62,239 bases of DNA, taken from positions 1 through 62,239 of IMG/VR virus record IMGVR_UViG_3300030202_000729; one strand, written 5' to 3'. Source of the stretch: a virus. Taxonomy: Duplodnaviria > Caudoviricetes. Below, one piece after another: positions 20,109-60,441 of this stretch. The notes under the pieces are model-generated. The model was not told where the DNA came from and did not search any database. It saw nothing but the letters and a program-made list of their open reading frames with translations. Position 1 is the first letter of the stretch. The number at the start of each line of letters is the position of its first letter. A program made the translations under genes and the position numbers.

Positions 20109-23100
20109 TATCGTAATGATTGTCGGAACTTGGTACCCGCAGCATACAAATATAACAAATTTGTGCTAGAGTTGTCGTTACTAAGTCTTACACCCAGGTA
20201 GTGATCAACAAAACGTCGTCTTTCGTGCCATAGTTTTTCAGTGTCTACGTACGCACTATTCACTACTCCTTCAGATGTAAACATAGGCTCAGTCTCAGAA
20301 GTAGTTACTATTTCTTGAGTTATCTGGCCAACCACGTTGGGAGTCCCTGTGTTTATGTAGCTGTTCGTAACAGCTGCTGTTCTAGAGAAATCTCTGAATG
20401 AGTTAATATACCAAAATTTATCTACAAGTCTGGCATTACTCAAATAATTAATATTTGTTTTAGTACTTGATATTTGAGTACTGTTGTACGTATAAAAGGA
20501 TGTGAAACCAGGTATAGTTCTTGTTTCATATTCTGTTACATACGTACCATCTTTCTTTACTACATCTGCCCAGTATGCAATACTGCTAAACACTTTGGAG
20601 TTAGCTGCGGCAGAGTTGTCTATAAATTCAAACTCGAATGGGTATGTTGTTCCGTAGAAACTACCAGGAGCTGCATTGTTGCTATGCTCCCACATTGTTG
20701 TAGTATCAAAGCTGTAGAAGTTTTCTGGAGTACTTGCATACATCTTAGGCAAGTAACTGTGTCTACTGCCCCAAGTTTCTAGTTCGGGGTAATAAGACAG
20801 TGTCCATCCTCCAGGAACAAAGTAATCTGAGTTATCAAAAGATGCAATGTCAACAGGATTACCAGCAGAGTCGTATATTACAAATACTAGAACTCCTGTG
20901 TAAATAACATCCTCAGCTGTAAAGTTATCTTGCAAAAACTCTTTATCTGGTCTAACGGTTTGTACAAGACCATCACTGACATAGGACAAGAATAAATCTG
21001 TAGGCAGCATCTCCTTCTTAGTCACAAGGATTCGTTTGTACTTAGGGTCATAACCTGAAGTAAATCCAAACGGGGTATCAGAGGTTGGTGCATCTAGCTG
21101 TATGTTAGTGTCCTCTAGATTAATTCCATACTGCTCTACTTGGTAAGGCATGTTTTCCCTGAACCAAGACTCCATTCCCATAGATATCTCCTTAACTCCT
21201 CCTTGGAACATGTAGCATTTAAAGTCTCTTTGAGAGACCCAGAACCTACCAAATGGAGTGCTAATACCAGACAAGATAGATTTAGTTCCACCATGCCCAA
21301 GAGCTGTTTCTAGAGCTTCTCCTGGATCTTGCGTAAAGATATTACCGCTACCCACAAATGCTGTAGCAGCACTAATCTGCAACTCTTCTTTACCTCTTGT
21401 CATAAACAGAGATCGTTCTGTGTGAAGAATCAACTGACCATTCTGCGTGTATATATCCCAGATATCTCCTCTGTTCTTAGGTATATCTCTGAAATCATTT
21501 GCCAAGAACTCTCTATACTTATCTCCAATGAACAGCCCAGTAGGCTTAGATCTTATTACTCTTGTAGCAAACTCGTATATGTTTTCATCTCCAGGCTTTC
21601 TCTTAGGATAAGCTCTAGCTACTTTCTTTTCATTTAGAAGAGAGTAATCATCATTGTATAGCAAGTTGTCTTGCTCTGTATGATCATTAGTAGGTGGATC
21701 AAAAAGAACTTCACTTGCTGTATCCCTGTCAAAGTATTTAACATCCACACCTTTCTCCTTGTCTTCCCCGTGTCTAAATCCAATGTTTATATCAGACTCA
21801 CAAAGGAATGAAAAAACTGTGCTTACTGGATCTACTGTTCCCTGCACAAAGTTATCACCGTTATCCAACAAAGACCGAGTAACTTTATTTCTGTCACCGG
21901 AAGTATTTACTACGTCTAGGTTCGCATTCTGATTACTAGATGTACCCCCAAACCACACGTTCATGTCGTTGGTTTTACCCCACCTTCCAGATGACAATGA
22001 TTGCTTGGTATTTCTTTCGTTAGGAATATCTCCCTGGAATCTTCTTCTAGTACCTTCTGCTAGATGGAAAGCATTCTTATTTTTAATACCACCACTTCCA
22101 GAAGTAGTAAGATCCCCCCCTAAACTAGCGCCATGTTCATTTCCTGGATCTCCTAGACCTGTAGATCCCCTAAAGAAGGTATGACCATAGCCTTGAGAAG
22201 TAGTTCTAAATCCATACCTAGTTATAAATGTATCACCTCCAAAGACAAATCCACTAGTGGCTGTACCATCATAGTAGTTATTAGTGTCTGGATTTGACAT
22301 ATCGTTAGAATCTAAATCAGTTACTATACCAGTATCTAGATCTACACTTTCTATTTCTTTGTAGTATCCTGTCCACACCAACTCTTGCCTATCTAATGGG
22401 TTAAATACATCTGTTTTTATTGCATTGATATTAACCATCCAAGACATAGGCAGGCCGTGGAATTGGTTATTAGGTTCTAGTCCATACCTAAGTCCTCTAA
22501 ACGCTTCAGCTGTAGCTGTATTAAGAGTATTTGGGAAGTTATCTACTGAATTTGCCTCTGCAAAGATATGAGAAGGTATTGTTGTTGTAGGTATTTTAGG
22601 GGCGTCTGGGAATAAGTAGTGATTATCCTCACTCCATTGTACTATGTCTTTTGAAAGCTTCTCCCAATTATCTTGGCTCATACCCTGCAAGAACCCATAA
22701 TCACCCCCGTCTGTATTGGATATGGATGCACGTACACCTTTAAGGTGAGGCAACCCACTAACCAATCCAATAGCTAATGAAGATTCTCCTCCTCTGTTAT
22801 AAAGGATAGAAGCTCCTTGGAAAGAAGAAGAGTCTGGGACTGTGTTGTTTACTTTACCACGTACGTATTTTTTACTGCCTGGATCAATTGCATACATCCA
22901 GAAGTTTTCACGTTGATAGTCACCTCCACTCCATGTCCAATCTCCTCTTATTGAAGTAAAAGAAAAAGAAGAAGCACCATCCCCAAACGCAGAGCCTTTA
23001 GTGCTGCCTCCTTTTATAACAGAAGGAGCTCCCATAGCAACTCCCGGAGGTAGATATCCAGAAGCTATGTTGACTTGGCCTTTAAAAGCTCTAACCATGA

Positions 23101-25990: not shown

Positions 25991-26988
25991 AGGATGTCAG
26001 TCTTTGTGTTCATAGTAGCAAAGTTTGGAGCTCTGTCAAGACTTTCTCTTTCTGCAAGATTCTCAAACCCATTTGCGTATCTATTGATATTGGGTACAAG
26101 CCTAACCCATTGATTCATCCAGTTCTCCATTCTTTCAATGTCTGGGTACACAGCTGCATTACGTGCTTGTGTGCAGTAGTACTTCCACTTGTTGTCAGCA
26201 AAGTCATATGCAATACCATTAGTAGTCTGCATACCTCCAAGCAACATCTTCTTGTATATGTACCAGAACATAGCTTCTTTGTAGCTAATGTCGTCTGGCA
26301 CTAGCGGGAAGCAATCTGCGTCTGTAGGCATAGCCTTGTAAGACAGACATACTTTACCCTCTGCAAATGAAGTCTTGATTCTATCTGCTTCTACCAAGTA
26401 GCACTCTGATGAAGCATGGTAATTCTGTGTACAGTCTTCACAGTGTATTGCCTCTGGAAAATTACCTGTGCAATATCTAAGTGGCTGCAGGTTACCTGTG
26501 CTAGGAGACATGTATTGATTGTACAACACGTAGGAGTTTGCTAACAACTTGTTAAGCGTTTGGTCTGAGGTCTTATTCAACGTATCGAGATCAACCAAAG
26601 TCGCCTTAGCCAATGAGCTACTTATAGTACCATCTGCAAGTTTATTAAGTGTAGCAGAGATAAAATCCTTACTAAACTTGTACGTGCTAGACAGATCTTG
26701 AATATCTTTATTGACTTGATTTATCTGACTAGACACACTAACAGCATCTTGTGACTCATTTATAGACACCTGATTAATGTAGTATAGATCTGCAGGCAAA
26801 GGTCCTTTATGGTCCTTAATGTCAACTATACACGTTCTAGACTCTAGCTGTGCACTAGCCCCTATATGTTCAAGAGCTTCACCAATCCATTCTATTCCGT
26901 CATCAAGCCAGTCAGCGCCCTCAGGATTGAGGTCACGCATAACCTTTCTTAGTATTACTTGTGCGGATGTTGTTTTATATATTGCCAT
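25987..26988 (-). CDS. tail ring / tubular protein (P22 gp4-like)
   Basis: 333 aa; IEWIGEALEHIG and SYKAMPTD..FPLVPDD..EAMFWYI motifs; directly upstream of the muzzle. Confidence 0.75.
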   Translation of the reverse strand: MAIYKTTSAQVILRKVMRDLNPEGADWLDDGIEWIGEALEHIGASAQLESRTCIVDIKDHKGPLPADLYYINQVSINESQDAVSVSSQINQVNKDIQDLSSTYKFSKDFISATLNKLADGTISSSLAKATLVDLDTLNKTSDQTLNKLLANSYVLYNQYMSPSTGNLQPLRYCTGNFPEAIHCEDCTQNYHASSECYLVEADRIKTSFAEGKVCLSYKAMPTDADCFPLVPDDISYKEAMFWYIYKKMLLGGMQTTNGIAYDFADNKWKYYCTQARNAAVYPDIERMENWMNQWVRLVPNINRYANGFENLAERESLDRAPNFATMNTKTDIL

Positions 26989-27627: not shown

Positions 27628-29151
27628 TTATTTCTTTTTACGACCAGCTGCTCTCATTGTCTTCTTACCTCCATACATCTTCTTCTTTGCTTTCTTCTTA
27701 GGAGAGAAGCCGTATCTAGCTGCTGCACTTGCATCTGGTTGAGGTTGCTCTTGTCCTCCCATGGGGTTAGAGTTACCAAATGCTCCGCCCTTAAAGCCTT
27801 GCATAGCACCTTGGATACCACCGCCTCCCATAGCACCTTTAACAGCTCCAGCTGCTCTACCAAGCATTCCACCACCAAGTGCTCCTTTAGCAGCACCCAT
27901 GAGCTTCTTACCAAATCCTCCTTCAGCTCCTTTAGCTCCAGCAATAGCTCCTGCTATCTTTCCAAGTCCAAACTGAGCTTTCTTCTTATGGTCGTACCCT
28001 TTCTTCTTAAGACTTAGGTGCTTTTCATAAGTATTTGCTTTTATACCTTTCCCTGTCTTAGGGTCATACATCATATGAGGTTTAAAGTCTTTGGCACCTC
28101 CAGCTCTCTTGTAGCCCATCTTGTTACGGACATTAGTAGAAAGCTTACTCAAGCCCTTACCCTTGCTGCCTTCTGGTACGTCCTTAAGTCCACCAGCTGT
28201 CATTTTACGAGCATCTTTAAGCTTCTGCTTAGCGCTTTTAATTTTATCTCTTTTTACACCACGTGCAGCTTTCTTGTTTTGTCTTTTAGCCCTTCTATCT
28301 GGAGTGGCTGATGGTGCAGGAGTAGATTTTAAATCAGCAATCTTATCTTTTTCTCTTTGTACTCCTCCCATTCCTGATCCTGCTCCTGTATTAGCTCTAG
28401 GTGTAGATTTAGGTTTTGGAGCTGGTGCTGTCTTCTTAGTTTGAAGTCCAGGTCTTTTTACTCCTGAATCAACTGGTCCTGCTTTTTTTGCTTCAACCTT
28501 TTTCATAGATTCGTCTCGTCGTGGTCCTTTTCCATAAGCAGCATTAATTTGATTCTGGACACGATTGTACTCAGATGTACCTTTCTCCAGATTCTTTCTA
28601 CGGCTAATTAGTTTATCCAAATTAGGATTCTTCTTTTTAGCTTTTTCATAAGGACTCAGCTCCTTCTTTGCAGGTCCGGGCATATTACTAAGCTCATCAA
28701 GCTTTTGATTTACTTTTTTAGAATCAGTATTACTTCCGCTCTTCCCCGTTCTATTTGCTCCAGTACCTTGTGGGGTATTTTGCTTTTCTTCTCTAGATGG
28801 ACCTCTTCTGTCTGCTGTTGCTGCATCTTTACTTTTCTTTTGGTCCGCTTTAAATTTAGCTCGTTTTGTAGCTTGTAATGTATACGCACTATCTGCTTTC
28901 ATATATTCTGCAGATCCTTGTATTACAACTTTACCACTAGGAAGCATATATGCGGGTACACCTCCTTTACGAATTTTACCAATTAAGCCTGCTTTTTGTC
29001 CTGGAGTTTTCTTTCCAGCGTCTTGCATCTTTTTAGAAGGCCCACCAAACATGAGTTCTTTAGAGGGCTCCATGTAGCTGCCCCCCATACCCATTTTCTT
29101 TTTACCTGCGGCTCTCATGGTTTTTTTGCCGCCGTACATTTTCTTTTTCAT
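27628..29151 (-). CDS. Lys/Gly-rich modular basic protein
   Basis: 507 aa; KKKMYGGKKTMRAAG at both termini; DFKPHMMYDPKTG module. Confidence 0.75.
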   Translation of the reverse strand: MKKKMYGGKKTMRAAGKKKMGMGGSYMEPSKELMFGGPSKKMQDAGKKTPGQKAGLIGKIRKGGVPAYMLPSGKVVIQGSAEYMKADSAYTLQATKRAKFKADQKKSKDAATADRRGPSREEKQNTPQGTGANRTGKSGSNTDSKKVNQKLDELSNMPGPAKKELSPYEKAKKKNPNLDKLISRRKNLEKGTSEYNRVQNQINAAYGKGPRRDESMKKVEAKKAGPVDSGVKRPGLQTKKTAPAPKPKSTPRANTGAGSGMGGVQREKDKIADLKSTPAPSATPDRRAKRQNKKAARGVKRDKIKSAKQKLKDARKMTAGGLKDVPEGSKGKGLSKLSTNVRNKMGYKRAGGAKDFKPHMMYDPKTGKGIKANTYEKHLSLKKKGYDHKKKAQFGLGKIAGAIAGAKGAEGGFGKKLMGAAKGALGGGMLGRAAGAVKGAMGGGGIQGAMQGFKGGAFGNSNPMGGQEQPQPDASAAARYGFSPKKKAKKKMYGGKKTMRAAGRKKK

Positions 29152-29375
29152 GATTTTTTATTTTTCCAAGATACCCGTTTACTTGATTGTTTTTTACGCA
29201 TACCTGATCTGGTACATGCGCTGAGTGTTGGACGACAAGCCGGGTATCCCGTCTTCCTTTTCTCGGATGTAGATTTTCTACCACAGGGCACAAATTTACC
29301 AGCGGCTTTGGATGCTTTACAATCCACCCAGCCCCTTCCAGAGTTTTGTTTAAACCAACTGCGTAGGTTAGACAT
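29148..29375 (-). CDS. small basic Cys-containing protein
   Basis: likely start MSNLRSWFK at 29375 (TAATG overlap with upstream stop); WVDC..PCGR..YPACRP pattern. Confidence 0.7.
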   Translation of the reverse strand: MSNLRSWFKQNSGRGWVDCKASKAAGKFVPCGRKSTSEKRKTGYPACRPTLSACTRSGMRKKQSSKRVSWKNKKS

Positions 29376-29743
29376 TATCCTTTTGCCCAGTATCCATACT
29401 CTATGATACAAGAAGATGTATCAGCTCTTGCTTCTACCCCTGCCCCATCGTTTACAGGAAAGAATGCAAACTCTCCTGGACCAAGTCTAGCATACTGTAC
29501 ACTAGCAGTGGTTTGAAGAATGATAAAGTTAGTAGAGTCTAGATTCTTTGCATAAAAATAAAATACTCCGCTAACTGCCTCATCCAAAATTTCTTGGTTA
29601 TCAGAGGTTGTTATTGTTTCTCTTGAGAGTCCCTTTGAGGGTCCTGCTGCCGCAGTTGTAAGTATATCTGTAACAGATATGTTAAGTCTGTTTGACGAGA
29701 TGTCGGTTGATGACAGTGTCAAAGTTGCATTTAAAGTTGCCAT
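29375..29743 (-). CDS. small beta-rich putative virion accessory protein; paralog of 37967-38368
   Basis: 122 aa; YFYAKN..YARLGPGEFAFFP..IIEY aligns by eye with the 133-aa ORF. Confidence 0.6.
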   Translation of the reverse strand: MATLNATLTLSSTDISSNRLNISVTDILTTAAAGPSKGLSRETITTSDNQEILDEAVSGVFYFYAKNLDSTNFIILQTTASVQYARLGPGEFAFFPVNDGAGVEARADTSSCIIEYGYWAKG

Positions 29744-29778
29744 TTTCGGTCTTTTTAATTAATGTTATTATTGTGATG

Positions 29779-29786
29779 CAAAGGTA
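29779..29786 (-). promoter_or_regulatory. Bacteroidota -7 promoter element (TACCTTTG)
   Basis: TACCTTTGCA in an intergenic gap ~35 nt upstream of ATG 29743. Confidence 0.65.
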
Positions 29787-29790
29787 GTAA

Positions 29791-30156
29791 TTAAAATGAG
29801 CTCATTATAATTTCATCTACTACTTCTTGAACGTCTTTTTTTGTTGCTTCAAGCTGCATCATAATATTAGCTTGAAAACGTTCTACTTCTTCTCCTTCAT
29901 TAAATACAATAATAGTTGGAACTACAACTATCTTGTGTTCTATCTGCATGCTGGGGTCAGAAGCTATATCAATCCTACGAGCACTGCAATCACTTATCTT
30001 ATCGATCCATGCGACGCCGTTAGCAGCATTAAAGCTGGCATTGAATTCTACAACGCAGATTCCTGAATTATCAATTTCAGGGTCTTCTACCGGTACGGAT
30101 ATATATACTGCTGTAGACAGTAGAACCGTAGATAATATTGCTAGTGTTATTTTCAT
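29791..30156 (-). CDS. exported or membrane-anchored thioredoxin-fold protein lacking CxxC
   Basis: 121 aa; N-terminal hydrophobic segment; VVEFNASFN in place of VDFxAxWC; IVVVPTIIVFNEGEEVERF cis-Pro loop. Confidence 0.7.
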   Translation of the reverse strand: MKITLAILSTVLLSTAVYISVPVEDPEIDNSGICVVEFNASFNAANGVAWIDKISDCSARRIDIASDPSMQIEHKIVVVPTIIVFNEGEEVERFQANIMMQLEATKKDVQEVVDEIIMSSF

Positions 30157-30440
30157 TATTTCAATTTATCGATCTTTTCTTCTATGCGGTCAAGATCTTC
30201 TTTTAGTTCTTTAACATCTTCTTGCGTAGTCATGATTGTTTGACGGACCAGCTGATCCTTCATGTCAAACTCCATGCGTGTGATCTCTGGTAGGGGAGGT
30301 TCAGGTAGTTCTTTAGCTAGAGCTATATCAGCTTGTAGCGTAAAGTACATACCAATTAAAGCAGCCAACCCCGCTGCTGCCATCCCTATTGTTTTAAGAT
30401 CTAATGTTACTTTAGTATCTTCTCCTATTTGCTTTGCCAT
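30156..30440 (-). CDS. single-pass membrane protein with C-terminal coiled coil
   Basis: 94 aa; IGMAAAGLAALIGMYFTL TM; QEDVKELKEDLDRIEEKIDKL heptads. Confidence 0.75.
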   Translation of the reverse strand: MAKQIGEDTKVTLDLKTIGMAAAGLAALIGMYFTLQADIALAKELPEPPLPEITRMEFDMKDQLVRQTIMTTQEDVKELKEDLDRIEEKIDKLK

Positions 30441-30441
30441 C

Positions 30442-31488
30442 TTATAGTAGTATATAATTTATCCCCACAGAGAAGTCGTGCCACTCTCTATTCCAATATC
30501 TGTTATATTTTCCCTCTAGGAACACGCCGAGGCTTTTTGTAATCTTTGTACCAAACACCAATCCTGCTCCAAAGTCAACCCATTGATCGCTGTTGACAAA
30601 GTTGTGGTATGAGTATTCCCCATCTGTATTCAAATGGTAAGGCATCATGTTACCCCAACTATGTACCCAGAAGTCTTTGCTGTAGTGGTAGTAGTCAAAG
30701 CCTATAACAACTGAGTGTACCCATTGGTCTTGAAGCTCTGATCTCTTAGACGCTACGTAATCATCTAGAACTTGAGGTATTATTACCTGTTCCCAAATTA
30801 CAGCATCGTTAGCTACAAGCTCACCCTGAGGGTTAAAGAACTCTTCTGTATTTACATCAATGCTGTACCCTTCTTGCAACGCAAGTGAAGTGTAGTGTAT
30901 TTGATCATTGTCAAGTACCCACTCCTGCAATGGATCGTATCCATAAGGCTCAGAGATTCTTTGCATTACACCTACATTGACTGAGAACTTCTTACCAATC
31001 TTAGCTCGTAGTCTTTGTGATCCCTCGAAGTAACTAATGTCAGCAAAGCCGTCCTGCAGGTATTCTGCTTTTACAACCCACCAATCATCTATGTATCGTA
31101 TGAAGTAATCTTGATCTAGGAAGTTGCGTCCTTGTTGTCTTCTCCAATCTGCTTCTGCAAGGAACTCAAGTCCGTTGAATTTTCCAACTGTTGCTGCGTC
31201 CCCGTACGTTTTCTCAGTGCCATCATAGAATACATTAGCTCTGTTCTCATAGCCAAAACGCGCAATCTTTCGGACCCCAAGCGTAAGAGAGTAGTCAAAG
31301 GGTGTTTCAATAACCCCGGTTGTAAGTGCTCCGGTAGTGACAGAATATACGTCATCATCAGATACCGAGTTGCCGCCATTAGCCGCTGCGTAGAACGTCG
31401 CTCTTCTAAGCACTTTCTTGTAGAAGTCTCCTTGTGCATAGTTTGTAAGTGGGAGTAAAGCCAGTAATATGATTAGTAGGTACCTCAT
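30442..31488 (-). CDS. putative outer-membrane beta-barrel protein
   Basis: 348 aa; Sec signal ending NYA|Q; alternating aromatic beta-strands; C-terminal DFSVGINY beta-signal-like strand. Confidence 0.7.
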   Translation of the reverse strand: MRYLLIILLALLPLTNYAQGDFYKKVLRRATFYAAANGGNSVSDDDVYSVTTGALTTGVIETPFDYSLTLGVRKIARFGYENRANVFYDGTEKTYGDAATVGKFNGLEFLAEADWRRQQGRNFLDQDYFIRYIDDWWVVKAEYLQDGFADISYFEGSQRLRAKIGKKFSVNVGVMQRISEPYGYDPLQEWVLDNDQIHYTSLALQEGYSIDVNTEEFFNPQGELVANDAVIWEQVIIPQVLDDYVASKRSELQDQWVHSVVIGFDYYHYSKDFWVHSWGNMMPYHLNTDGEYSYHNFVNSDQWVDFGAGLVFGTKITKSLGVFLEGKYNRYWNREWHDFSVGINYILL

Positions 31489-33542
31489 TGCTTTACGATT
31501 GTTTGTTTAAATACTCTGTTCTTGTAATTGATTACTACAGTGTAAACACCTGCAGCTGGTAGCTCTATTTGGGTATCAGCAGTCATCAGTACTTTCTGTC
31601 CTGTAGAACTATACACTGTAGTAAGTGTACCTTCTGGGGCTTGTACATTAATGTAGTCTCTCGTAGGATTAGGATATACTCTTACCTGATCCATATGTGT
31701 AGGTACATTTGTTATTCCGTCGCCGCAGTAGCCGTACATCTCTACACACACCTCATCCCAACCTACTTCACAGCAGTAAGGATCTACAGAGATTACCCAT
31801 GCATAGCACTGGTCATTCAACCAATATGGTTCTCCTGGTCCTGTAATGCATCCTGCATCATAGAAACAATCAGTAGATGTATTGGCCTCTTCGTTGTAGT
31901 TGTATGCGTCTAGGTCCATACATCCTTCTACTATAGCTACACAGCTGTTGTTATCTACGTTAGCTTCAGGCTCGTAGTTTAATGCATCTTGATTAGTGCA
32001 CCCAAAGACTGCTAGTGTTTGACAGCTGCCATCATCGTAGTCAGCTTCAAAGCCTTGCGTATAGTATTCTAGGTAGCCTGCTTGATCACACCCTGGGTTG
32101 TAGTAGCATGTTCCGTCTTCGCTATTTACATCAGGGTTAAAGTTAAATGCTAGGCTATCTGTACACCCGTATGAGAATGGGATACAGCTAGTTCCGCAGT
32201 AGGGAGTAAAGCTGTATACATTCCACTCAGGGTTCTTGAATGGTTGAAGCGCTCCCTGACCATTGTCAAAAAACGGGTTGAGTCCTTCTACCATTAGTGT
32301 GTCTTCAAGCTCGTTTGTTACGAGTATAGAGTTGTGGAGTGTTTGAAACTCCGTCTCTTGGGGAGGCTGTTGGGGGCTGCCTATTTCAAAGTAGTATACG
32401 TCAACCTTTTCGTCAGAGTCAAGAACTAGGTCCCACGACTGAGAGAACTGTCCAGGACCCATGGTAAAGATCCACTGTAGATCACCTTGTTTTACGCCTA
32501 TATGTGAGTTACCCCACCCATCTCCAGCTGCGTCTCCAATTCTTATAGTTGTAAGGCACGGGCTGTTTAGGTCTGAGATTGTAGCAATTGAATCATAGTT
32601 GAATGCTGTTGAATCCATGCAGCCCCATGTATGAAGCACTTCACATGTGTCTTGTGCTGTAGCCAGGGGATTGTAGTCTACGTAGTCATCATTCATACAT
32701 CCGACTATAACGCTATCAGCAGCACAAGGCTCTACGAATACAGGACCAGAGTAGTGGACCATACCATCATTTTCTGAGTAAGCTAAGTCTTCTAGCTCCC
32801 AAACAATTTCTTCATCGCAGGCAGTAATAACTACACCGCCATCCTGCCCACCACTTGAAGAGCCATTAAGACCATCTCCGTATGTATCTGTAAGTATAAG
32901 CTCAAATCCTAGAGCTACACAGAAGTCATAGGTATATGTAGCGAGTTGATCACCAAAGTTAAATCCGCCTGGGAGTACTTGTTCGTAGAATTGACCAACA
33001 GCTAAATCAACAAGAGTGAATCCTGTTTCGTTAGGCCAGTTGTCTAGCGTCAACTCCATGGATACAAATGCTTGACCTTCTGGACACTCACTAACATTGC
33101 AGGTTCCGTTGTCTACCGTAGCCCATGGATTGTAGTTGTTGGATTCATCATTTGTACATCCAGGCACGGGAAGAGCACAAGGCTCTAACATAAAAGGAAC
33201 TGTTATCTGTGCAGTGTTGAAGTCAAATACTGACAAGTCAAGACCACAGTCATTGTTTAGTTTAAACCAACCTTCTCCAAACTGACAGCAAATACCGTCA
33301 CCGAACTGATCGTTCACTACAAGATTGTACTCACCTGATGGTAAGGGTATAAGCTGTTCTGTATAAGACGAGTCAGCATATGGACCTCCAGATGCAAACG
33401 CACTGTCAGATCCAACCATGTATATCTCCCAAGTACTTTCACTTCCGTATGAGTCGGTCTGAAACTCTAGGTTAACCCAGCTTGGTTGTGCTGCTATGAT
33501 ATTAGACAGCCCTATAAATAGTATTGTAAGTAATTGTTTCAT
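31485..33542 (-). CDS. secreted Cys-repeat protein with type IX secretion (T9SS type A) C-terminal sorting domain
   Basis: probable start MKQLL at 33542 (ATGA overlap); signal peptide ending IAA|Q; seven GCx[DN]..[ND][YF]-type repeats; C-terminus VRVYPNPTRDYINV..VYSSTGQKV..LPAAGVYTV..KQTIVKQ. Confidence 0.85.
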   Translation of the reverse strand: MKQLLTILFIGLSNIIAAQPSWVNLEFQTDSYGSESTWEIYMVGSDSAFASGGPYADSSYTEQLIPLPSGEYNLVVNDQFGDGICCQFGEGWFKLNNDCGLDLSVFDFNTAQITVPFMLEPCALPVPGCTNDESNNYNPWATVDNGTCNVSECPEGQAFVSMELTLDNWPNETGFTLVDLAVGQFYEQVLPGGFNFGDQLATYTYDFCVALGFELILTDTYGDGLNGSSSGGQDGGVVITACDEEIVWELEDLAYSENDGMVHYSGPVFVEPCAADSVIVGCMNDDYVDYNPLATAQDTCEVLHTWGCMDSTAFNYDSIATISDLNSPCLTTIRIGDAAGDGWGNSHIGVKQGDLQWIFTMGPGQFSQSWDLVLDSDEKVDVYYFEIGSPQQPPQETEFQTLHNSILVTNELEDTLMVEGLNPFFDNGQGALQPFKNPEWNVYSFTPYCGTSCIPFSYGCTDSLAFNFNPDVNSEDGTCYYNPGCDQAGYLEYYTQGFEADYDDGSCQTLAVFGCTNQDALNYEPEANVDNNSCVAIVEGCMDLDAYNYNEEANTSTDCFYDAGCITGPGEPYWLNDQCYAWVISVDPYCCEVGWDEVCVEMYGYCGDGITNVPTHMDQVRVYPNPTRDYINVQAPEGTLTTVYSSTGQKVLMTADTQIELPAAGVYTVVINYKNRVFKQTIVKQ

Positions 33543-33814
33543 TTGCATCTGCATCTCCACTTTCTAAGTGCTTTGTTAATACGTGAGTTAGGATCTCTTT
33601 TTCCCTTAGATCCTGTTCGTCTTTTCTTCATACCGCACATACGAGCACAGAATGATTTACGTCTAGACTTTTTCTTGCCTTTGGGGTTCTTCTCAGTAAC
33701 CGCCATAGATAACTTACTGCCTGGATTGGCTTTACGATAAGAAGCAATGCCTTTGCGGTTTAGTCCGCCAGACTTGCTTTTACCCTCTTTCCGTGTCCAT
33801 GCTGCCGTTGCCAT
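33539..33814 (-). CDS. small highly basic protein (KSFCARM..NSRINKALRKWRC family)
   Basis: 91 aa, Lys/Arg-rich; pattern recurrent in aquatic phages. Confidence 0.75.
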   Translation of the reverse strand: MATAAWTRKEGKSKSGGLNRKGIASYRKANPGSKLSMAVTEKNPKGKKKSRRKSFCARMCGMKKRRTGSKGKRDPNSRINKALRKWRCRCK

Positions 33815-34041
33815 TACCTAGGATCTGTATTGTCAGACCAGTCGTCTCCTTTAAGGATAGTACTTATCTCTTCATATGTGTACTCAGTTGTTCCGTCAAG
33901 GAACGAGGGTTTATCTCCAATGTACTTGATAACAACTTGTTGCCCATCCAAAGCATGTCTAAGTTTACTTAAGTTAGTAAACGGTAGTTGAGAAAAGTCT
34001 AATGACTCTGCCGTTGATTTATCTATTATTGTCCAGCCCAT
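33814..34041 (-). CDS. hypothetical protein, companion of the LamG-domain gene
   Basis: 75 aa; coupled to the next gene by TAATG overlap. Confidence 0.7.
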   Translation of the reverse strand: MGWTIIDKSTAESLDFSQLPFTNLSKLRHALDGQQVVIKYIGDKPSFLDGTTEYTYEEISTILKGDDWSDNTDPR

Positions 34042-34052
34042 TTTAATTTATT

Positions 34053-34862
34053 TTAACTTGGTACACTAGTACTAGCTGTTGGATTTCCTTCCATTGTCAA
34101 TGATACTCCATTAAGACCACGGTCTTCTGAAAGATCACTTTGAGTACTTCCTACAAATCTGTAGTAACGGTTTAATCTATTTGAATTATCATAATTACCA
34201 TTATCTTCTGTAAGATCAAATGGTACTCCTGAGTTATATATAGCTGCTACTGAATCTGAATCAATAGGAATACTAAATATAGCAATCTCATCCATACTTC
34301 CAGTAAAGTGTTGGGACGCAACTCCATTAGAGTCATCTGCTCCAAAAAGCAAACCTCGTCCACTAGTCACTGTTGTAGCCTCTTGAAAGTTTTTTGTTTT
34401 AGTAGCACCAGTACCTACTTGCGATCCATTTATATAAAGAGTATGAGTACCGTTAGTTGAGTCGTCTGCTCCTCTGGCTATTACATACGCCAAATGCGTC
34501 CAAGTGTCATTAGTGTCTGTAAAACTTGGATTGATTAATTGTATAGTTGCACCAGTTGCACCTCCTAATTTTATAAACATTGAAAATACATCAACAGATG
34601 CATTAAGATATTGATACATACACTCAAATCCTCCCGCAAGAACGTTACCCGTATCACTATAACCAAATAGATTAAAGGTGCTGTCGTACGTTGTTTTAAA
34701 CCAAAAAGAAATACTAAGGCCCGTTCCCCTTATCAAAGTTTGAAGATCAGCTTCGGCAAAAATATCTAGAGCATCGCCTGTACCGTCAAACTCAAGTGAC
34801 TGTAAGTTCTCATATCCTCCTAGAACGGAGTACGATGATATTGATGTTCCTAGACCTAACAT
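34053..34862 (-). CDS. LamG / concanavalin A-like lectin domain protein (putative fibre/receptor binding)
   Basis: SLEFDGTGD, SISFWFK, WTHLAY, LYING, FTGSMDEIAIF motifs. Confidence 0.8.
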   Translation of the reverse strand: MLGLGTSISSYSVLGGYENLQSLEFDGTGDALDIFAEADLQTLIRGTGLSISFWFKTTYDSTFNLFGYSDTGNVLAGGFECMYQYLNASVDVFSMFIKLGGATGATIQLINPSFTDTNDTWTHLAYVIARGADDSTNGTHTLYINGSQVGTGATKTKNFQEATTVTSGRGLLFGADDSNGVASQHFTGSMDEIAIFSIPIDSDSVAAIYNSGVPFDLTEDNGNYDNSNRLNRYYRFVGSTQSDLSEDRGLNGVSLTMEGNPTASTSVPS

Positions 34863-34863
34863 G

Positions 34864-35310
34864 TTATGATCCTGCTACTGATACTGTTACACCTGCTGCT
34901 GCGTATCCTATCATCTTACCACTATCAAGTTCCACAACTCCAAAGTTGCCGTAGATAGTCATACCCTTAGGTATAGTAAGAGTCCCAGACAAGTCTTGTA
35001 TTGATCCAGAATCATCACTTTCTGTAATGTTGGTATCACCTTCACTTGCATCAATTACTGAATCCTCCAACGCACTGAGTGCATAGAAAGGTCCTGTAAA
35101 AGCTTTAGTGCCGCTTAGCAGGACTGTAGATGTAGGAGCCGAAACTCGGTCCATTCTTTCATCAATAGTATCAAGTACAGCATCAATTGCAGTTAGCAAA
35201 GTATTTGCTGAATCTTGAGCTGTTTTGGTTTCTTCTGTAGCTTTTTGGGTTGCTACAGAGGCCTTTCTTTGTTTGTCGAGAAGTCTTTCTCGTGTTGTAT
35301 TAAGTGCCAT
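34864..35310 (-). CDS. putative virion structural protein
   Basis: 148 aa; N-terminal coiled coil, C-terminal TIPKGMTIYGNF beta domain. Confidence 0.55.
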   Translation of the reverse strand: MALNTTRERLLDKQRKASVATQKATEETKTAQDSANTLLTAIDAVLDTIDERMDRVSAPTSTVLLSGTKAFTGPFYALSALEDSVIDASEGDTNITESDDSGSIQDLSGTLTIPKGMTIYGNFGVVELDSGKMIGYAAAGVTVSVAGS

Positions 35311-35312
35311 AA

Positions 35313-35975
35313 TTAGTTTTGTTGTCTATCGTTAGAAGTATCATTTTGTCCAGTGGACATCAAGGTTAGTTCTCCTGTAGCTATGCCGTTAGTGATAATA
35401 CTAACCATATCCATAGGAAGCGGGTAAGGGGACTGGTCATCATAACATTGTCCATCTTCACATGTAGCAAACTCTGCTACTGTTCTAGGGTCTTCAAATA
35501 CCCCTCTTACATTTACCGCCTCAAGTCCTTTAGGGTTGTAGATGTATATGTATTCATCTATAACGTAGAACTTGGTTTGGCCCGCTGTGTATTTATCATA
35601 GGGTATGTATTCAACCTCATAAGGTTCAACTCGTGGGATTGTGCCTGTACCATTGGGCTTACCTATGAATGTAAAGGCGTCTCTAAAGTTAAATCTAACT
35701 GTTCGAGGCAACCTCTCTGACGTCCTATACACAGGACAGTCTTGTGGTAAGTTACAACATTTAGATGCATCTACCTTGATAATATCAAGACATCCTAAAT
35801 CTTGTTCAAGCGAATTAGAGACATAGCCATTTCTAGCATAGTCTCTACGTATAAACATAGCACGGTAGTGCTGTATGTTGAACTTGATCTGGTCTAGCGA
35901 TATGATTTCATCATTACTAGATCTACCAGCCCTAACAAGGTTTAGGATATTGTATGCGATCTCATCTAAAGTCAT
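35313..35975 (-). CDS. tail ring protein (crAss type)
   Basis: 220 aa; MTLDEIAYNI..IKFNI..YR and VRGVFEDP..YPLP motifs. Confidence 0.7.
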   Translation of the reverse strand: MTLDEIAYNILNLVRAGRSSNDEIISLDQIKFNIQHYRAMFIRRDYARNGYVSNSLEQDLGCLDIIKVDASKCCNLPQDCPVYRTSERLPRTVRFNFRDAFTFIGKPNGTGTIPRVEPYEVEYIPYDKYTAGQTKFYVIDEYIYIYNPKGLEAVNVRGVFEDPRTVAEFATCEDGQCYDDQSPYPLPMDMVSIITNGIATGELTLMSTGQNDTSNDRQQN

Positions 35976-36258
35976 CTAACTTGTCTTTAGCACTGATTAG
36001 CTCAGCACATTTTTCGTATTCTTCACTTTCTTCAAAGTACTTAATCATATCTTCCACAACAAGCTTAAACGTGGACGGATCACTTGGGTCAAAGGGCAAG
36101 AATATCATATCAGGACTTCTATCAAGAAGCTCTGATACTGACATTTTACCAGTTGCCACATCAAAAGCATTTCTGTATGCTTCATCTAAGATCTCCAACT
36201 CCTCTTCAACTGAAGAAGAGAAGTCGTAATCGTCGTCTATGTCGTCAAATTCTAACAT
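35962..36258 (-). CDS. acidic protein with UvrB/C-like EEYEKCA helical motif
   Basis: likely start MLEFDD at 36258; the longer track ORF overlaps the phosphoesterase gene. Confidence 0.6.
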   Translation of the reverse strand: MLEFDDIDDDYDFSSSVEEELEILDEAYRNAFDVATGKMSVSELLDRSPDMIFLPFDPSDPSTFKLVVEDMIKYFEESEEYEKCAELISAKDKLDDFR

Positions 36259-37384
36259 TTGTTTGTAGATAACCTTCAAGTCCTCTTTGCTTATTCCATA
36301 TATATGCCTGCCCTGTTCGTTTAGCCTCGTACCCCATCTGCTTGTGCCATTCATCGTTAGGACAAATAGATGGTAGAAACCTAACTTTGATACCTCTGTA
36401 CTCATTGACCATTTCTTTGTGGAGGTGCCCACAATGAACTTCACGGTGTTTTGTTCTTGCAAACATCTCCGGGTTTTCAGTAGCCATTATTAGTGGCATA
36501 TCAGCCGGTTTCTCTTTATCTCCGTGTGTAAACAATAACATGTTCTCTCCGTACTCATAGTACTTACGAGAGCTGTAGTTGTTGTCTACATTCACGTTGG
36601 CATCGTTTCTGAACCATCCTGCGAGTACATCTCCTGCATAGAACATGCGCTCGTAATCGTGGTTACCAGATATCACTAGTACATCAACAGGAGCGATAGT
36701 AGTTAGATAAGTTATAGTTCTTACCATTAACTGGCAGTATCCTCTAAACGTATCTTTCCATCCACCGTTGTCTTGTTGTGGTGTTCCTTTGGTAGTTGAC
36801 ATACGAAGTCCTTCGGAGTTCATACCATCATTACCTATTGGTAGTAGAATCTTTTCTATCTGTAGTCCCCTTGCTTTATGTATAAGGTCTCCTACAACGG
36901 CTAGATATTCTTCTTCTACCTCACGTAGTGATAGATTGTGGAGTTTTCCGTAGTGTATATCTGGTAGTGATACCTCATATACTACAGGGTCAGAGTACTT
37001 TTCATACTCGACCTTTGCAGCTTTCGGGCTGTATTCAGCTGCAAACTCTTCAATCTCCTGTTTGATTGCATCCATGCTCATCGATTCCCCCTTTGTTACT
37101 ACGGAGAATCGTTGGTGTCCTGATACCGTTTGCCAGAACTTTACGCTAGATACATCACCAGGTGCGATGCCATTCTTGTCAAGGAACGTTTGGAACTCAC
37201 TGATAACACTTTCATTATTGTTGGCGTTATCATCAGGCTGTTCCTTAGCCTTTTTTCTTGATTCGTAGAGCGCTGTCTCACAAAGTTCAACATCACACTC
37301 TAGTCTTCCTGAGAGTACTTCCGCACTCTTTTTCAAATACCCAGGCTTCCCCGTTAGGAAGTCTTTGATTTCATTTATAGTCAT
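36245..37384 (-). CDS. calcineurin-like metallophosphoesterase
   Basis: DIHYG, GND, GNHD, HGD and GHLH motifs in canonical order. Confidence 0.88.
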   Translation of the reverse strand: MTINEIKDFLTGKPGYLKKSAEVLSGRLECDVELCETALYESRKKAKEQPDDNANNNESVISEFQTFLDKNGIAPGDVSSVKFWQTVSGHQRFSVVTKGESMSMDAIKQEIEEFAAEYSPKAAKVEYEKYSDPVVYEVSLPDIHYGKLHNLSLREVEEEYLAVVGDLIHKARGLQIEKILLPIGNDGMNSEGLRMSTTKGTPQQDNGGWKDTFRGYCQLMVRTITYLTTIAPVDVLVISGNHDYERMFYAGDVLAGWFRNDANVNVDNNYSSRKYYEYGENMLLFTHGDKEKPADMPLIMATENPEMFARTKHREVHCGHLHKEMVNEYRGIKVRFLPSICPNDEWHKQMGYEAKRTGQAYIWNKQRGLEGYLQTNVRI

Positions 37385-37396
37385 GTGTTTGGTTTA

Positions 37397-37528
37397 TTAT
37401 GACCCACAATTTTCACACTCCTCGGGATTTTCTATGTTACACGTTATCTCACCAGATTTAATTTTATCTTCTTGCTTCTTCAGCTTATCCTGATCTAAAA
37501 AGCTAATGTCATCGAATTCATCTTCCAT
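37397..37528 (-). CDS. 43-aa acidic peptide ending CNIENPEECENCGS
   Basis: read manually; TAATG overlap with the holin stop; fills the gap. Confidence 0.7.
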   Translation of the reverse strand: MEDEFDDISFLDQDKLKKQEDKIKSGEITCNIENPEECENCGS

Positions 37529-37965
37529 TACTTCTTTGCCTTCTTCTCGATAGTTCTACCAGCAAAGTAGGCACCAAATGCTGTAAGCATCAGTAGCTCG
37601 AGTAGAGATACGTAGGAGTCTTTTACGTTGAATGCTACGTTGTCCATGCTGTCTATAAACATAGTTACCATAAACATCCCCATAAGGCATATAAGCGTGA
37701 CAGGACGTATCAGCTTTGCAAGCTTAACATCACTGCCCATATCGGCCTTCCAACGCTCTGTAACGTTCTCCTGGAATCTAACCTCAGCATCAATTACACG
37801 CTGAGCTTCTGCAGGATCTACACCAGGTTCGTTGTCCAAAAGGTTTTTGACTACACCTAGTGCACCACTGTCTGGTAGAAGGTCTCCTACTACACCTAGT
37901 ACTTTCGGTGCTTTGCTTGCTAGCCAAGCTCCTAGCTTTGTATCTTTTATCTTACCCTTACTCAT
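37528..37965 (-). CDS. putative holin
   Basis: 145 aa; VTERWKADM.SD..LAKLIRP, two TM helices, GAYFAGRTIEK basic tail (GTA/3TM holin-like). Confidence 0.7.
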   Translation of the reverse strand: MSKGKIKDTKLGAWLASKAPKVLGVVGDLLPDSGALGVVKNLLDNEPGVDPAEAQRVIDAEVRFQENVTERWKADMGSDVKLAKLIRPVTLICLMGMFMVTMFIDSMDNVAFNVKDSYVSLLELLMLTAFGAYFAGRTIEKKAKK

Positions 37966-59789: not shown

Positions 59790-60209
59790 TTACAATATAT
59801 CTGCAAACTTTTCTGATACTGTAAAACTAGGGCATGCCTTTGAACTGAATTCATTGTGCCCGTGGATGGTGATGTTCTTATCCTGCACGATACGCAAAGC
59901 GAATATGATCTCTCTCATAGACTTCTCCTGTTCTGCAGTCATCGTATCCTTAGGTGTCTTACCATCCTCTTCTACTCCCCCAACATAGCAGATCCCAATA
60001 GAATCTTTGTTGTGGCCTTTACAGTGAGCTCCTACCTTGTCGATAGAACGCCCAGTTTCTAGATCGCCGTTCAGTCGTATAAGGTAGTGATAGCCAATAT
60101 CTGACCATCCTCTCCCGTTTACATGCCAATCTCTGATTGTTTCTACATCAAAGTCCTGGCCCTCACGGGTAGCAGAACAATGGATTATAATCTTATTAAT
60201 ATCTCTCAT
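59790..60209 (-). CDS. N-acetylmuramoyl-L-alanine amidase (T7 lysozyme type endolysin)
   Basis: IIIHCSAT, GWSDIGYHY, GAHCKGHN, SIGICYVGG, GHNEF..KACP; start set at MRDINK (60209). Confidence 0.93.
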   Translation of the reverse strand: MRDINKIIIHCSATREGQDFDVETIRDWHVNGRGWSDIGYHYLIRLNGDLETGRSIDKVGAHCKGHNKDSIGICYVGGVEEDGKTPKDTMTAEQEKSMREIIFALRIVQDKNITIHGHNEFSSKACPSFTVSEKFADIL

Positions 60210-60441
60210 AACTATATAATTTTCCCCCTTGGGTTTTGTGTCTAACGCTGGATTTCCACTCGCCGTGTCTAGCCTGTGTGGGGGCATTTCTGTCAGCCTA
60301 TAGCCTTGTTCCCACCCGAGTTTTATACCAACGCACTTTTTGAAACTACCGGGGACGACGTTCACTGACTATGTTGACAGCTAATAGAACCCGATGTCTA
60401 GGCCCCTTTTTGGTTACCGAGGGCCGGTCACAGAAGTGGTT
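60210..60441. ncRNA. candidate structured non-coding element / long leader
   Basis: ~230-nt GC-richer gap with several complementary stems and three TGTCTA copies; no family recognised. Confidence 0.4.

What the first reader, a model, noticed from the sequence alone, without database searches (positions are those of the whole stretch)
29791..33542. Phage-encoded cell-envelope cassette that appears to use the host type IX secretion system
Seen: four tightly coupled genes (ATGA overlap, 1-nt gap, TAATG overlap), all with export or membrane signals. They encode (1) a ~685-aa acidic Cys-repeat protein with a signal peptide and a YPNP..G.Y..K T9SS C-terminal domain, (2) a 348-aa beta-barrel-like protein, (3) a single-TM coiled-coil protein and (4) an exported thioredoxin-fold protein without CxxC. 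Both signal peptides cleave before Gln. Known: type A CTDs route cargo through the Bacteroidota T9SS to the cell surface, and Gln at +1 is typical of Bacteroidota secreted proteins. Inference: a trans-envelope module by which a lytic-type phage remodels the infected cell surface, for superinfection exclusion, receptor masking, adhesion or grazing defence. I know of no characterised equivalent in phages.
Basis: partly seen in the sequence, partly recalled or inferred. Interest (0 to 1): 0.85.

Follow-up and report, generated by a model that had tools for sequence, protein, structure and literature searches.

The report
Phage envelope cassette beside lysis genes
An uncultured marine crAss-like phage carries four coupled genes for exported envelope proteins, one with a host type IX secretion tag, and in related phages this set lies among the cell-bursting genes, so it may be a new way for phages to breach the outer membrane.

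Summary
Four translationally coupled minus-strand genes (29791-33542) of a marine crAss-like phage encode:
- P1: a 30-Cys, pI 4 protein with a signal peptide, ending in a T9SS type A sorting domain (TIGR04183 above cut-off; fold match to a solved T9SS substrate CTD);
- P2: a 12-stranded outer-membrane beta-barrel;
- P3: a single-TM protein with heptad repeats;
- P4: an exported thioredoxin-fold protein without CxxC.

The set is phage-restricted, under purifying selection, and syntenic in 75-77 of 80 related viral loci.

The interpretation needs revision. The conserved core is P2 + P3 + P4. A branch whose barrels are about 31% identical keeps these three (65-79 of 80 loci). There the T9SS protein is replaced by a small 9-Cys secreted protein with no detectable CTD.

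In both branches the set sits among lysis genes. A holin lies directly upstream in 16 of 65 loci. An Amidase_2 or Peptidase_M15 endolysin lies directly downstream in 7 of 77 and 27 of 60 loci. One complete, otherwise nearly unrelated phage genome shares essentially only holin + cassette.

I read it as a lysis-linked envelope module, possibly a spanin substitute for Bacteroidota hosts, with T9SS export of one lineage-specific part. Surface remodelling remains a live rival. No function was tested, and no GenBank phage record carries it.

The parts
31485..33542 (-). P1: 685-aa exported, very acidic, 30-Cys modular protein. Signal peptide is about residues 1-19, and three beta-sandwich D.[YFA]GDG modules are joined by C..NY..C knots.
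   Evidence: 2974 homologues at E <= 0.001 among the 8000 candidates scored
31488..31679 (-). T9SS type A C-terminal sorting domain of P1 (residues 622-685)
   Evidence: TIGR04183 28.3 bits against cut-off 23; 33.6 bits; Foldseek match to 8glk_D, TM 0.72, rmsd 2.4 A
30442..31488 (-). P2: 348-aa outer-membrane beta-barrel of about 12 strands. It has a signal peptide (..YAQ|G), a conserved low-confidence segment at 75-105 on the inferred periplasmic side, and a 75-residue insert (180-254) in the inferred surface loop 4.
30156..30440 (-). P3: 94-aa protein with one TM segment (17-35), a Pro-rich linker and a C-terminal heptad helix. It is the best-conserved member (mean column identity 72%).
29791..30156 (-). 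P4: 121-aa exported thioredoxin-fold protein with the CxxC loop deleted. Its gene overlaps P3 (TAATG).
33539..33814 (-). DUF6321 basic 91-aa protein. Its stop overlaps the P1 start (ATGA), and it is a frequent neighbour of the cassette elsewhere.
   Evidence: Pfam PF19846 5.5e-17; found in 22 of 80 loci; junction
37528..37965 (-). Holin (phrog_3427), 4 kb upstream of P1 here but directly abutting P1 in relatives. It is 89% identical to the holin next to the cassette in the otherwise nearly unrelated genome G003.
59790..60365 (-). Amidase_2 endolysin of this phage. Its homologues lie directly downstream of P4 in 7 related loci.
   Evidence: Pfam PF01510 4.9e-13

Best explanation
This is a phage-specific envelope module whose conserved core is an outer-membrane beta-barrel (P2), an inner-membrane-anchored coiled-coil protein (P3) and a redox-dead periplasmic thioredoxin-like protein (P4). 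The core is paired with a secreted, acidic, Cys-rich partner. In this lineage that partner is P1, which carries a T9SS type A sorting domain.

Shown by computation: the folds and signals of the four products, their co-conservation, and their placement among lysis genes in relatives.

Inferred route:
- All four products leave the cytoplasm by Sec, using Bacteroidota-style signal peptides (Gln after the cleavage site).
- P2 is inserted into the outer membrane by BAM.
- P3 stays in the inner membrane with its helix in the periplasm (N-in/C-out, from flank charges).
- P4 is periplasmic.
- P1 crosses the outer membrane through the host T9SS and sits at or near the large surface loop of P2.

Inferred function: the set acts late, together with holin and endolysin, to carry out or control the outer-membrane step of lysis. 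In that role it would replace the missing i-spanin/o-spanin pair.
For: 1. Core versus accessory. In 80 loci found through a barrel 31% identical to P2, my profiles detect P2 in 79, P3 in 70 and P4 in 65. The P1-CTD profile hits 0 and the full P1 profile hits 5. In that branch a 166-305-aa signal-peptide protein with 9 Cys follows the barrel in 76 of 80 loci. It has no TIGR04183 hit.

2. Lysis context. Peptidase_M15_3 (E 3.7e-16, 1.3e-11, 3.3e-18) follows P4 directly in L157, L134 and L131, and a holin comes next. An M15 gene lies within 300 nt of P4 in 27 of the 60 branch-B loci that have room for one. The architecture 'P2 P1b tm2 P3 P4 M15 hol' occurs in 15 loci, and the same without tm2 in 10. 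In the window's own branch a phrog_3427 holin lies directly upstream of P1 in 16 of 65 loci, and an Amidase_2 homologue of the window's endolysin lies directly downstream of P4 in 7 of 77.

3. Shared module. G003 is a complete 62-kb genome with terminal repeats and no crAss capsid hit. It shares with the window holin (89% identity), P1, P2, P3, P4 and DUF6321 in one block, plus only five other weak matches.

4. Spanin logic. P3 has the layout of an i-spanin (N-terminal TM plus a periplasmic helix), and P2 is an outer-membrane protein. No lipobox ORF was found on the coding strand of the window, and only P1-P4 carry N-terminal export signals there.

5. Selection and range. dN/dS is 0.04-0.17 where dS is not saturated. 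There are 3619 P2 homologues. Species-representative genomes gave only 6 hits, all MAG contigs with mutually inconsistent taxonomy labels.
Against: - In the window itself the cassette is not next to lysis genes. The holin is 4 kb away and the endolysin 26 kb away. The cassette sits between tail ring proteins 2 and 1.
- Most loci show no recognised lysis gene directly adjacent: 49 of 65 upstream and 70 of 77 downstream in branch A, and 33 of 60 downstream in branch B.
- The loci are related, so these counts are not independent events.
- Accessory outer-membrane genes are known to sit beside lysis cassettes without a lysis role (lambda bor; recalled).
- No o-spanin feature is present. P4 has no consistent lipobox, and P2 is an integral barrel.
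- The P3 periplasmic part is about 57 residues, short for spanning a periplasm.
- No partner contacts were shown.
- G003 has a separate lipoprotein-like ORF (4876-5136) that could be a conventional spanin part.
- The window is only about 73% of a genome, so missing spanins could lie off-record.
Confidence: 0.42

Rival explanations
1. Surface remodelling of the infected cell. P1 is exported by the T9SS and displayed on the P2 barrel. It masks receptors or coats the cell and its debris, so that superinfecting phages or released progeny are not adsorbed. P3 and P4 act as assembly helpers.
For: - The CTD is genuine and conserved: 104 of the 120 listed P1 homologues carry PF18962.
- The P1 gene overlaps P2, and the substitute 9-Cys protein also abuts P2 in the other branch.
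- P2 has a 75-residue insert in what the strand order implies is a surface loop.
- P1 is modular and varies strongly (32-84% identity, 654-1056 aa) while P2 and P3 stay conserved. That is expected of a surface-exposed part under diversifying pressure.
- Acting at the time of release would also explain a position beside lysis genes.
Against: - The core P2-P3-P4 persists without any CTD protein.
- There is no match to known defence or exclusion families in PADLOC.
- The model gives no role to an inner-membrane coiled-coil protein that is the most conserved member.
- The genes lie in a late structural/lysis context, which suits exclusion of superinfection poorly.
Confidence: 0.27
2. Lysis-timing control rather than membrane rupture. 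P3 (single TM plus a periplasmic domain) and P4 (a weakly hydrophobic N-terminal anchor plus a periplasmic domain) act like the T4 holin periplasmic domain and the RI antiholin, sensing the periplasm and tuning the holin. P2 and P1 provide input from the outer membrane or surface.
For: - The P3 and P4 genes always overlap and sit next to holins. A 2-TM protein is inserted just before P3 in 52 of 80 branch-B loci.
- The N-terminal hydrophobic stretch of the window's P4 is rich in Ser/Thr/Ala, and 56 of 128 P4 homologues lack a small-Gln cleavage motif.
- The T4 comparison itself is recalled, not tested.
Against: No sequence or fold relation to T4 T, RI or RIII was found: P3 has no PDB hit below E 0.43, and P4 is thioredoxin-like. 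The model does not explain a BAM-dependent barrel.
Confidence: 0.1
3. An accessory ('moron'-like) cassette unrelated to lysis, for example an outer-membrane channel plus secreted binding protein that alters nutrient uptake, adhesion or grazing resistance of the infected cell. It would sit near lysis genes only because that is a permissive insertion site.
For: - Flanks vary widely, and ring and muzzle genes are detectable near the cassette in only 3 of 80 loci.
- The block is shared between unrelated backbones.
- P2's nearest folds include substrate channels (NanC, KdgM, Tsx).
Against: - The block that moves includes the holin.
- The triad is retained across barrels only 31% identical, with strong purifying selection in the window's branch. 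That is unusual for a dispensable moron in lytic-type phages.
- No enzyme or transporter family was detected.
Confidence: 0.15
4. Virion (tail) proteins whose N-termini only look like signal peptides, given the position between tail ring proteins.
For: The cassette lies between CrAss_Ring_2 and CrAss_Ring_1. The gene after P4 has a weak 'minor tail' PHROG hit.
Against: - P2 is a membrane beta-barrel, and many homologues end in an aromatic beta-signal.
- The signal peptide plus Gln motif is conserved in 149 of 149 P2 and 58 of 62 P1 homologues.
- The CTD matches a secretion substrate.
- There are no PHROG structural hits for P1, P2 or P4.
Confidence: 0.03

Closest known systems
Two-component spanins (lambda Rz/Rz1; Kongari et al. 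2018, PMC6139136, passages read)
   Same: The parts list matches in outline: an inner-membrane protein with an N-terminal TM segment and a periplasmic helical or coiled-coil domain, plus an outer-membrane partner. The genes overlap and lie in a lysis cassette (in relatives). The proposed job is also the same, the outer-membrane step of lysis.
   Different: - The outer-membrane part is an integral 12-stranded barrel, not a Pro-rich lipoprotein.
- There are extra thioredoxin-like and secreted Cys-rich parts.
- P3 has no Cys for the disulfide links typical of spanins.
- P3 is short (94 aa).
- No sequence relation was found.
T9SS type A cargo proteins of Bacteroidota (TIGR04183/PF18962; solved substrate complex 8glk)
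   Same: P1 has a Sec signal peptide, a C-terminal beta-sandwich sorting domain at the extreme C-terminus, an HMM score above cut-off and a fold match.
   Different: P1 is encoded by a phage, and no cellular homologues of its passenger were seen in the top hits. The passenger has no known enzyme or adhesin family. Dependence on a host T9SS is untested and the host is unknown.
Type B CTD cargo with cognate PorP/SprF-like barrel (e.g. SprB-SprF; recalled)
   Same: A secreted protein gene immediately adjacent to a gene for an outer-membrane barrel of about 350 aa.
   Different: P1's CTD is type A, not type B. P2 gives no PorP/SprF HMM hit. The barrel persists where the neighbour has no CTD.
Phage-encoded outer-membrane proteins lambda Lom/Bor and T5 Llp (recalled)
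   Same: Phage genes for host outer-membrane proteins. Bor sits beside the lysis cassette, and Llp masks the receptor.
   Different: Those are single genes (an 8-stranded barrel or lipoproteins) of temperate or T5-like coliphages. Here there is a four-part, envelope-spanning, strictly co-conserved set.
phiKT gp28 'disruptin' (bioRxiv 10.1101/515445, abstract read)
   Same: Precedent that phages lacking spanins use a different device for the outer membrane. The abstract states that about 15% of phages lack spanins.
   Different: gp28 is a single cationic peptide. This module is acidic, multi-protein and membrane-integrated.

Membership tests
T9SS type A sorting-domain cargo (TIGR04183 / PF18962) | HMM match above the curated cut-off, at the extreme C-terminus | tested here: met
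   TIGR04183 28.3 bits against 23, residues 622-685 of 685; 33.6 bits. Pfam gives 24.5 against 27 for the window protein, but 32.8 and 44.7 for homologues.
T9SS type A sorting-domain cargo (TIGR04183 / PF18962) | N-terminal Sec signal peptide | tested here: met
   Hydrophobic core then AQ|P. The small-Gln motif occurs in 58 of 62 full-length homologues. This is a heuristic; no SignalP was available.
T9SS type A sorting-domain cargo (TIGR04183 / PF18962) | CTD beta-sandwich fold like solved substrates | tested here: met
   8glk_D (NucA CTD in the translocon): prob 1.00, TM 0.72, rmsd 2.4 A over 73 columns. Model pLDDT in this region is 76-89.
T9SS type A sorting-domain cargo (TIGR04183 / PF18962) | Secretion depends on a host T9SS | not testable with these tools
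   The host is unknown and no cultured phage carries the genes.
Two-component spanin | i-spanin: N-terminal TM segment, N-in/C-out, periplasmic helical or coiled-coil domain | tested here: inconclusive
   P3 has one TM segment (17-35) and a heptad pattern at 76-93 (and the sequence). Topology is inferred only from flank charges. The periplasmic part is about 57 aa, with no Cys.
Two-component spanin | o-spanin: small outer-membrane lipoprotein with a lipobox, gene embedded in, overlapping or following the i-spanin gene | tested here: not met
   P4 overlaps P3 but is thioredoxin-like and has no consistent lipobox. No lipobox ORF was found on the coding strand.
Two-component spanin | Located in the lysis cassette | tested here: inconclusive
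   Met in relatives but not in the window (holin 4 kb away, endolysin 26 kb away).
Thioredoxin superfamily (P4) | Sequence or fold homology to thioredoxin | tested here: met
   Family profile against the PDB: 2vim_A E 2.1e-8, 176 sequences at E <= 1. The single sequence scores below family cut-offs.
Thioredoxin superfamily (P4) | CxxC active site | tested here: not met
   The WCGPC position reads FNASFNAAN with a 5-residue gap in the HMM alignment. No CxxC appears in any sequence printed.
Outer-membrane beta-barrel protein (P2) | Signal peptide, even-stranded antiparallel barrel, C-terminal beta-signal | tested here: met
   Signal peptide in 149 of 149 homologues; 12 strands; OM barrels fill the top of both structure searches. 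The C-terminus is G.NY..[FILY]: the window ends ..NYILL, and many homologues end in F.
Autotransporter translocator domain | 12-stranded barrel fused to a passenger through a lumen-spanning linker | tested here: not met
   The fold resembles EstA and NalP (Z 13.6 and 12.6), but P2 is a stand-alone 348-aa protein with its own signal peptide and no Autotransporter Pfam hit.
PorP/SprF family T9SS membrane protein | Match to the family HMM | tested here: not met
   No PorP/SprF family appears among Pfam or NCBIfam hits at E <= 1. Fold-level relation is inconclusive: no T9SS barrel appears in the listed structure matches.
Crassvirales (the carrier phage) | crAss major capsid and tail ring proteins | tested here: met
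   Crass_capsid 1.2e-75, CrAss_Ring_1 9.3e-54, CrAss_Ring_2 5.4e-42.

The most novel reading that the evidence does not exclude
Bacteroidota phages possess a fourth kind of outer-membrane lysis device, alongside two-component spanins, unimolecular spanins and disruptin. It would be a BAM-inserted beta-barrel tied through a thioredoxin-like adaptor to an inner-membrane coiled-coil protein. It would be armed with a very acidic, probably Ca2+-binding, Cys-rich protein that the phage has the host T9SS deliver to the cell surface, where it weakens the cation-bridged LPS layer at the moment the wall is degraded.
Probability: 0.2. Interest if true: 0.9.

Novelty: categorically new. Interest (0 to 1): 0.72.

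Why it matters
- Phage lysis of Gram-negative cells is taught as holin, endolysin and spanin. In one survey, 91 of 677 phages had no recognisable spanin (PMC6139136, passage read). How phages of Bacteroidota, the main marine and gut polymer degraders, breach the outer membrane is largely unstudied.
- This module is abundant: 3619 barrel homologues at 90% clustering. It is confined to uncultured viral sequence and moves together with a holin between unrelated phages. It is therefore a concrete, testable candidate for that missing step.
- Independently of its function, P1 is a strong bioinformatic case of a virus addressing a protein to the host type IX secretion system. My literature searches found no published example.
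- That would add T9SS to the host machines phages exploit, and it gives a host-phylum marker (CTD plus Gln-rule signal peptides) for orphan marine phages.

Tried and rejected
- Complex prediction on mature P2 + P4 + the P3 periplasmic part (partner P3) returned 'no answer' (score 0.01). It is not used either way.
- Profile of P2 against PDB sequences: 0 hits. Profile of P3: nothing below E 0.43.
- PHROGs gave nothing for P1, P2 or P4, and only E 0.01-0.05 hits for P3, including a 'hemolysin'/XhlA-like family. I do not rely on these.
- The Pfam SH3_5 hit in P2 (E 8.6e-4, 19.8 bits, below cut-off 22) overlaps a barrel strand and was set aside.
- PADLOC: 0 families for 8 proteins.
- hhalign of the 9-Cys protein family against the P1 C-terminus gave probability 1.4%, and TIGR04183 gave none. 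I therefore dropped the idea that the small protein keeps a cryptic CTD, despite its ...YNLNGQ.I..GIYI.NGK ending.
- BLAST 'P1b' hits in branch A fell on antisense ORFs and were discarded as artefacts.
- Viral scan with the most distant barrel (P0196): no relatives. The first genome contigs attempt with A1 failed for lack of conserved columns and was redone with A2.
- tblastn of P2 and P4 against 50,697 GenBank phage records: no match.
- Amidase_2 and Peptidase_M15_3 were sought in five carrier records. They were found only in G004 (M15), so the endolysins of G001-G003 and G005 remain unidentified.
- The protein upstream of P2 in 10 branch-B loci (L088 6210-6707) has no PDB relative.
- The ESM Atlas placed P2 near OM-barrel families (0.92-0.93) and P3 near nothing above 0.87. 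These are leads only.
No supplementary files were consulted.

Full report
**What the window is.** The 62,239-base window is a whole IMG/VR virus record, linear, with CheckV completeness about 73%. All long ORFs are on the minus strand.

Pfam identifies the following:
- a crAss major capsid protein (50587-52038, E 1.2e-75);
- tail ring protein 1 (25987-26988, 9.3e-54) and ring protein 2 (35313-35975, 5.4e-42), plus a weak muzzle C-terminal hit in the 1960-aa ORF;
- a weak ring 3/4 hit;
- an Amidase_2 endolysin at 59790-60365 (4.9e-13).

The carrier is therefore a crAss-like phage. The cassette lies in its late structural region, between ring 2 and ring 1.

**The observation.** The upstream DUF6321 gene is coupled to P1 in the same way.
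- P1 is a 685-aa protein, pI 4.05, with 30 Cys. TIGR04183 passes its cut-off over the last 64 residues (28.3 against 23; 33.6 in the six-frame search; 0 of 14 control genomes ring). Pfam's model falls just short for this copy (24.5 against 27) but passes in homologues. It is recorded for 104 of the 120 listed homologues.
- An AF2 model of P1 (pLDDT 72.0, pTM 0.30) shows strings of small beta-sandwiches. Its C-terminal domain superposes on the NucA substrate CTD seen in a solved T9SS translocon (8glk_D). The other Foldseek hits are generic multi-sandwich proteins and say nothing specific.
- P2 folds as a barrel of about 12 strands (pLDDT 74.5). Its best matches are NanC, KdgM, Tsx, OpcA and autotransporter translocators. 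Homologues end in a G.NY..F type beta-signal.
- P4's family profile finds thioredoxins (E 2.1e-8), with the CGPC loop deleted.
- P3 has one TM segment and a C-terminal heptad pattern.
- Signal peptides followed by a small residue and Gln are near-universal in P1, P2 and the substitute protein, and are present in 72 of 128 P4 homologues. This fits the 'Bacteroidetes Q-rule' that a P. gingivalis phage paper also notes for phage genes (PMC10367356, passage read).

**Range and conservation.**
- P2 has 3619 homologues at E <= 0.001 in the 90%-clustered collection, none with a Pfam domain or an informative name. It has 305 representative clusters in the 50% library.
- Of 80 viral loci retrieved through P2, tblastn finds P1 in 77, P3 in 77 and P4 in 75, almost always in the same order. 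Ring and muzzle genes are detectable in only 3.
- Species-representative genomes gave only 6 hits. All are MAG contigs labelled with mutually inconsistent taxa (Nitrosopelagicus, Parvibaculum, Sphingobacteriales, Flavobacteriales, Rickettsiales). I take these to be mis-binned phage contigs.
- No GenBank phage record matches P2 or P4.
- dN/dS against close relatives is 0.04-0.17 wherever dS is not saturated.

**The turn in interpretation.** A barrel only 31% identical to P2 (P0139) led to 80 further viral loci.
- Profiles built from my alignments find P2 in 79, P3 in 70 and P4 in 65 of these. The P1-CTD profile finds nothing, and the full P1 profile hits only 5 large upstream ORFs.
- In this branch the barrel gene is followed by a 166-305-aa protein with a signal peptide, 9 Cys and acidic alternating repeats (76 of 80 loci). 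It has no CTD by TIGR04183 or by hhalign.
- The durable unit is therefore P2 + P3 + P4 plus 'a secreted acidic Cys-rich neighbour of the barrel'. The T9SS address is specific to the window's branch.

**Lysis context.**
- In the second branch, P4 is followed directly by a Peptidase_M15_3 endolysin (E 3.7e-16, 1.3e-11 and 3.3e-18 in the three loci checked). Next comes a holin (phrog_3427, E 1.6e-18 to 3.7e-29; Pfam GTA_holin_3TM 7.2e-5, just under cut-off).
- An M15 gene lies within 300 nt of P4 in 27 of the 60 loci with enough downstream sequence. The contiguous architecture P2-P1b-(2-TM protein)-P3-P4-M15-holin accounts for 25 loci.
- In the window's own branch the same holin family abuts the start of P1 in 16 of 65 loci. 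Homologues of the window's Amidase_2 (62-72% identical) follow P4 in 7 of 77.
- The window has this holin at 37528-37965 (E 4.1e-23), 4 kb upstream of P1.
- G003 is a complete 62-kb genome with terminal repeats and no crAss capsid match. It shares with the window a block of holin (89% identity), P1 (34%), P2 (66%), P3 (84%), P4 (60%) and DUF6321 (68%), plus only five other weak matches. Holin and cassette thus travel together between unrelated backbones.
- Three different lysis genes, in three arrangements, flank the set. That is hard to ascribe to chance, although the loci are related and the counts are not independent.

**Mechanism.** I commit to a lysis-linked envelope module (confidence about 0.42).
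- Shown by computation: folds, signals, synteny and selection.
- Inferred: Sec export of all four products; BAM insertion of P2; N-in/C-out topology of P3 (N-flank net charge about 0, C-flank about -3); a periplasmic P4; T9SS passage of P1.
- Strand order places the 75-residue P2 insert (180-254) on the cell surface. It places the most conserved, low-confidence P2 segment (residues 71-92: G.RK.A.F.YE....FY.G.E) in the periplasm. These are plausible docking sites for P1 and for P3/P4 respectively.
- The layout (inner-membrane helix plus outer-membrane protein) is that of a spanin (PMC6139136, passages read). The window shows no lipobox ORF on its coding strand.
- It is not a spanin family member: there is no lipoprotein and no sequence relation.

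**Against this reading.**
- The cassette is not adjacent to lysis genes in the window.
- Most loci show no recognised lysis gene immediately beside it.
- The P3 periplasmic part is short.
- G003 has a separate lipoprotein-like ORF.
- No contact between the proteins was demonstrated.

**Rivals.** The rivals, with my odds, are listed separately. They are surface remodelling or receptor masking (0.27), lysis-timing control (0.10), an unrelated accessory cassette (0.15) and virion parts (0.03).

**Literature.** Searches for phage-encoded T9SS cargo and for barrel-type lysis components found nothing describing such a module. The library holds only open-access papers and preprints, and no supplements were read. 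Three sources were used:
- Kongari et al. 2018 (PMC6139136, passages): the definition of spanins, and 91 of 677 phages with none found.
- bioRxiv 10.1101/515445 (abstract): about 15% of phages lack spanins; phiKT gp28.
- PMC8776804 (passages): lysis gene inventories of flavobacterial phages.

**Verdict.** The feature is real, abundant, phage-specific and without a characterised equivalent. Its most likely role has shifted from surface remodelling to the outer-membrane stage of lysis, with T9SS use as a lineage-specific refinement.

Noticed in passing
window 33556-33667 (within the DUF6321 gene 33539-33814): This is the only DNA-level similarity to GenBank phages within the query stretch 29000-36900: 74% over 112 nt to a hypothetical gene of Prochlorococcus phage P-SSM7 and to two marine single-cell virus records. 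The encoded 91-aa protein is very basic and matches Pfam DUF6321.
   Followed up: partly
L131 9572-9757; L088 3865-4047; G003 48697-48882 and others: A family of ORFs of about 60 aa (MINWINSW...CPC..C...) recurs within 3 kb of the cassette in 41 of 86 branch-A and 38 of 80 branch-B loci. It sits between endolysin and holin in L131 and between P1 and P2 in G003. It is absent from the window.
   Followed up: partly
proteins P0391 and P0392: P0391 (217 aa, one 701-nt contig) is a read-through fusion of P3 and P4. If real, it would challenge the N-in/C-out topology of P3. P0392 joins a P4-like domain to an HATPase_c segment on a 1-kb contig and is possibly a chimeric assembly.
   Followed up: no
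window 453-14336, 40372-46692, 20108-25990, 16755-20108: Giant ORFs of 4627, 2106, 1960 and 1117 aa have no Pfam hit at E <= 0.001, and only a weak muzzle C-terminal hit at the 0.01 limit (the 1960-aa ORF, E 0.0072). They are presumably crAss-type tail or cargo proteins.
   Followed up: partly
window 27628-29151: A 507-aa Lys/Gly-rich protein whose N- and C-termini repeat the same motif (KKKMYGGKKTMRAAG.KKK). No family hit was found.
   Followed up: no
window 36245-37384 and 34053-34862: A metallophosphatase or DNA-repair exonuclease gene (phrog_704, 3.5e-56) and a Laminin_G_3 lectin-fold gene (8.8e-15) sit inside the tail-gene region, between the holin and the cassette.
   Followed up: no
G003 (L168-L171), 4876-5136: An 86-aa ORF with a clear lipoprotein-type signal (..LLVGC) lies in the complete genome that shares the holin-cassette block. 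It could be a conventional spanin part or an exclusion lipoprotein.
   Followed up: no
L088 6210-6707, G003 6048-6590: A family of about 165-180 aa (MELEVIR...HCGN...GC) lies just upstream of the barrel in 10 branch-B loci. It has no PDB relative by sequence, and its function is unknown.
   Followed up: partly
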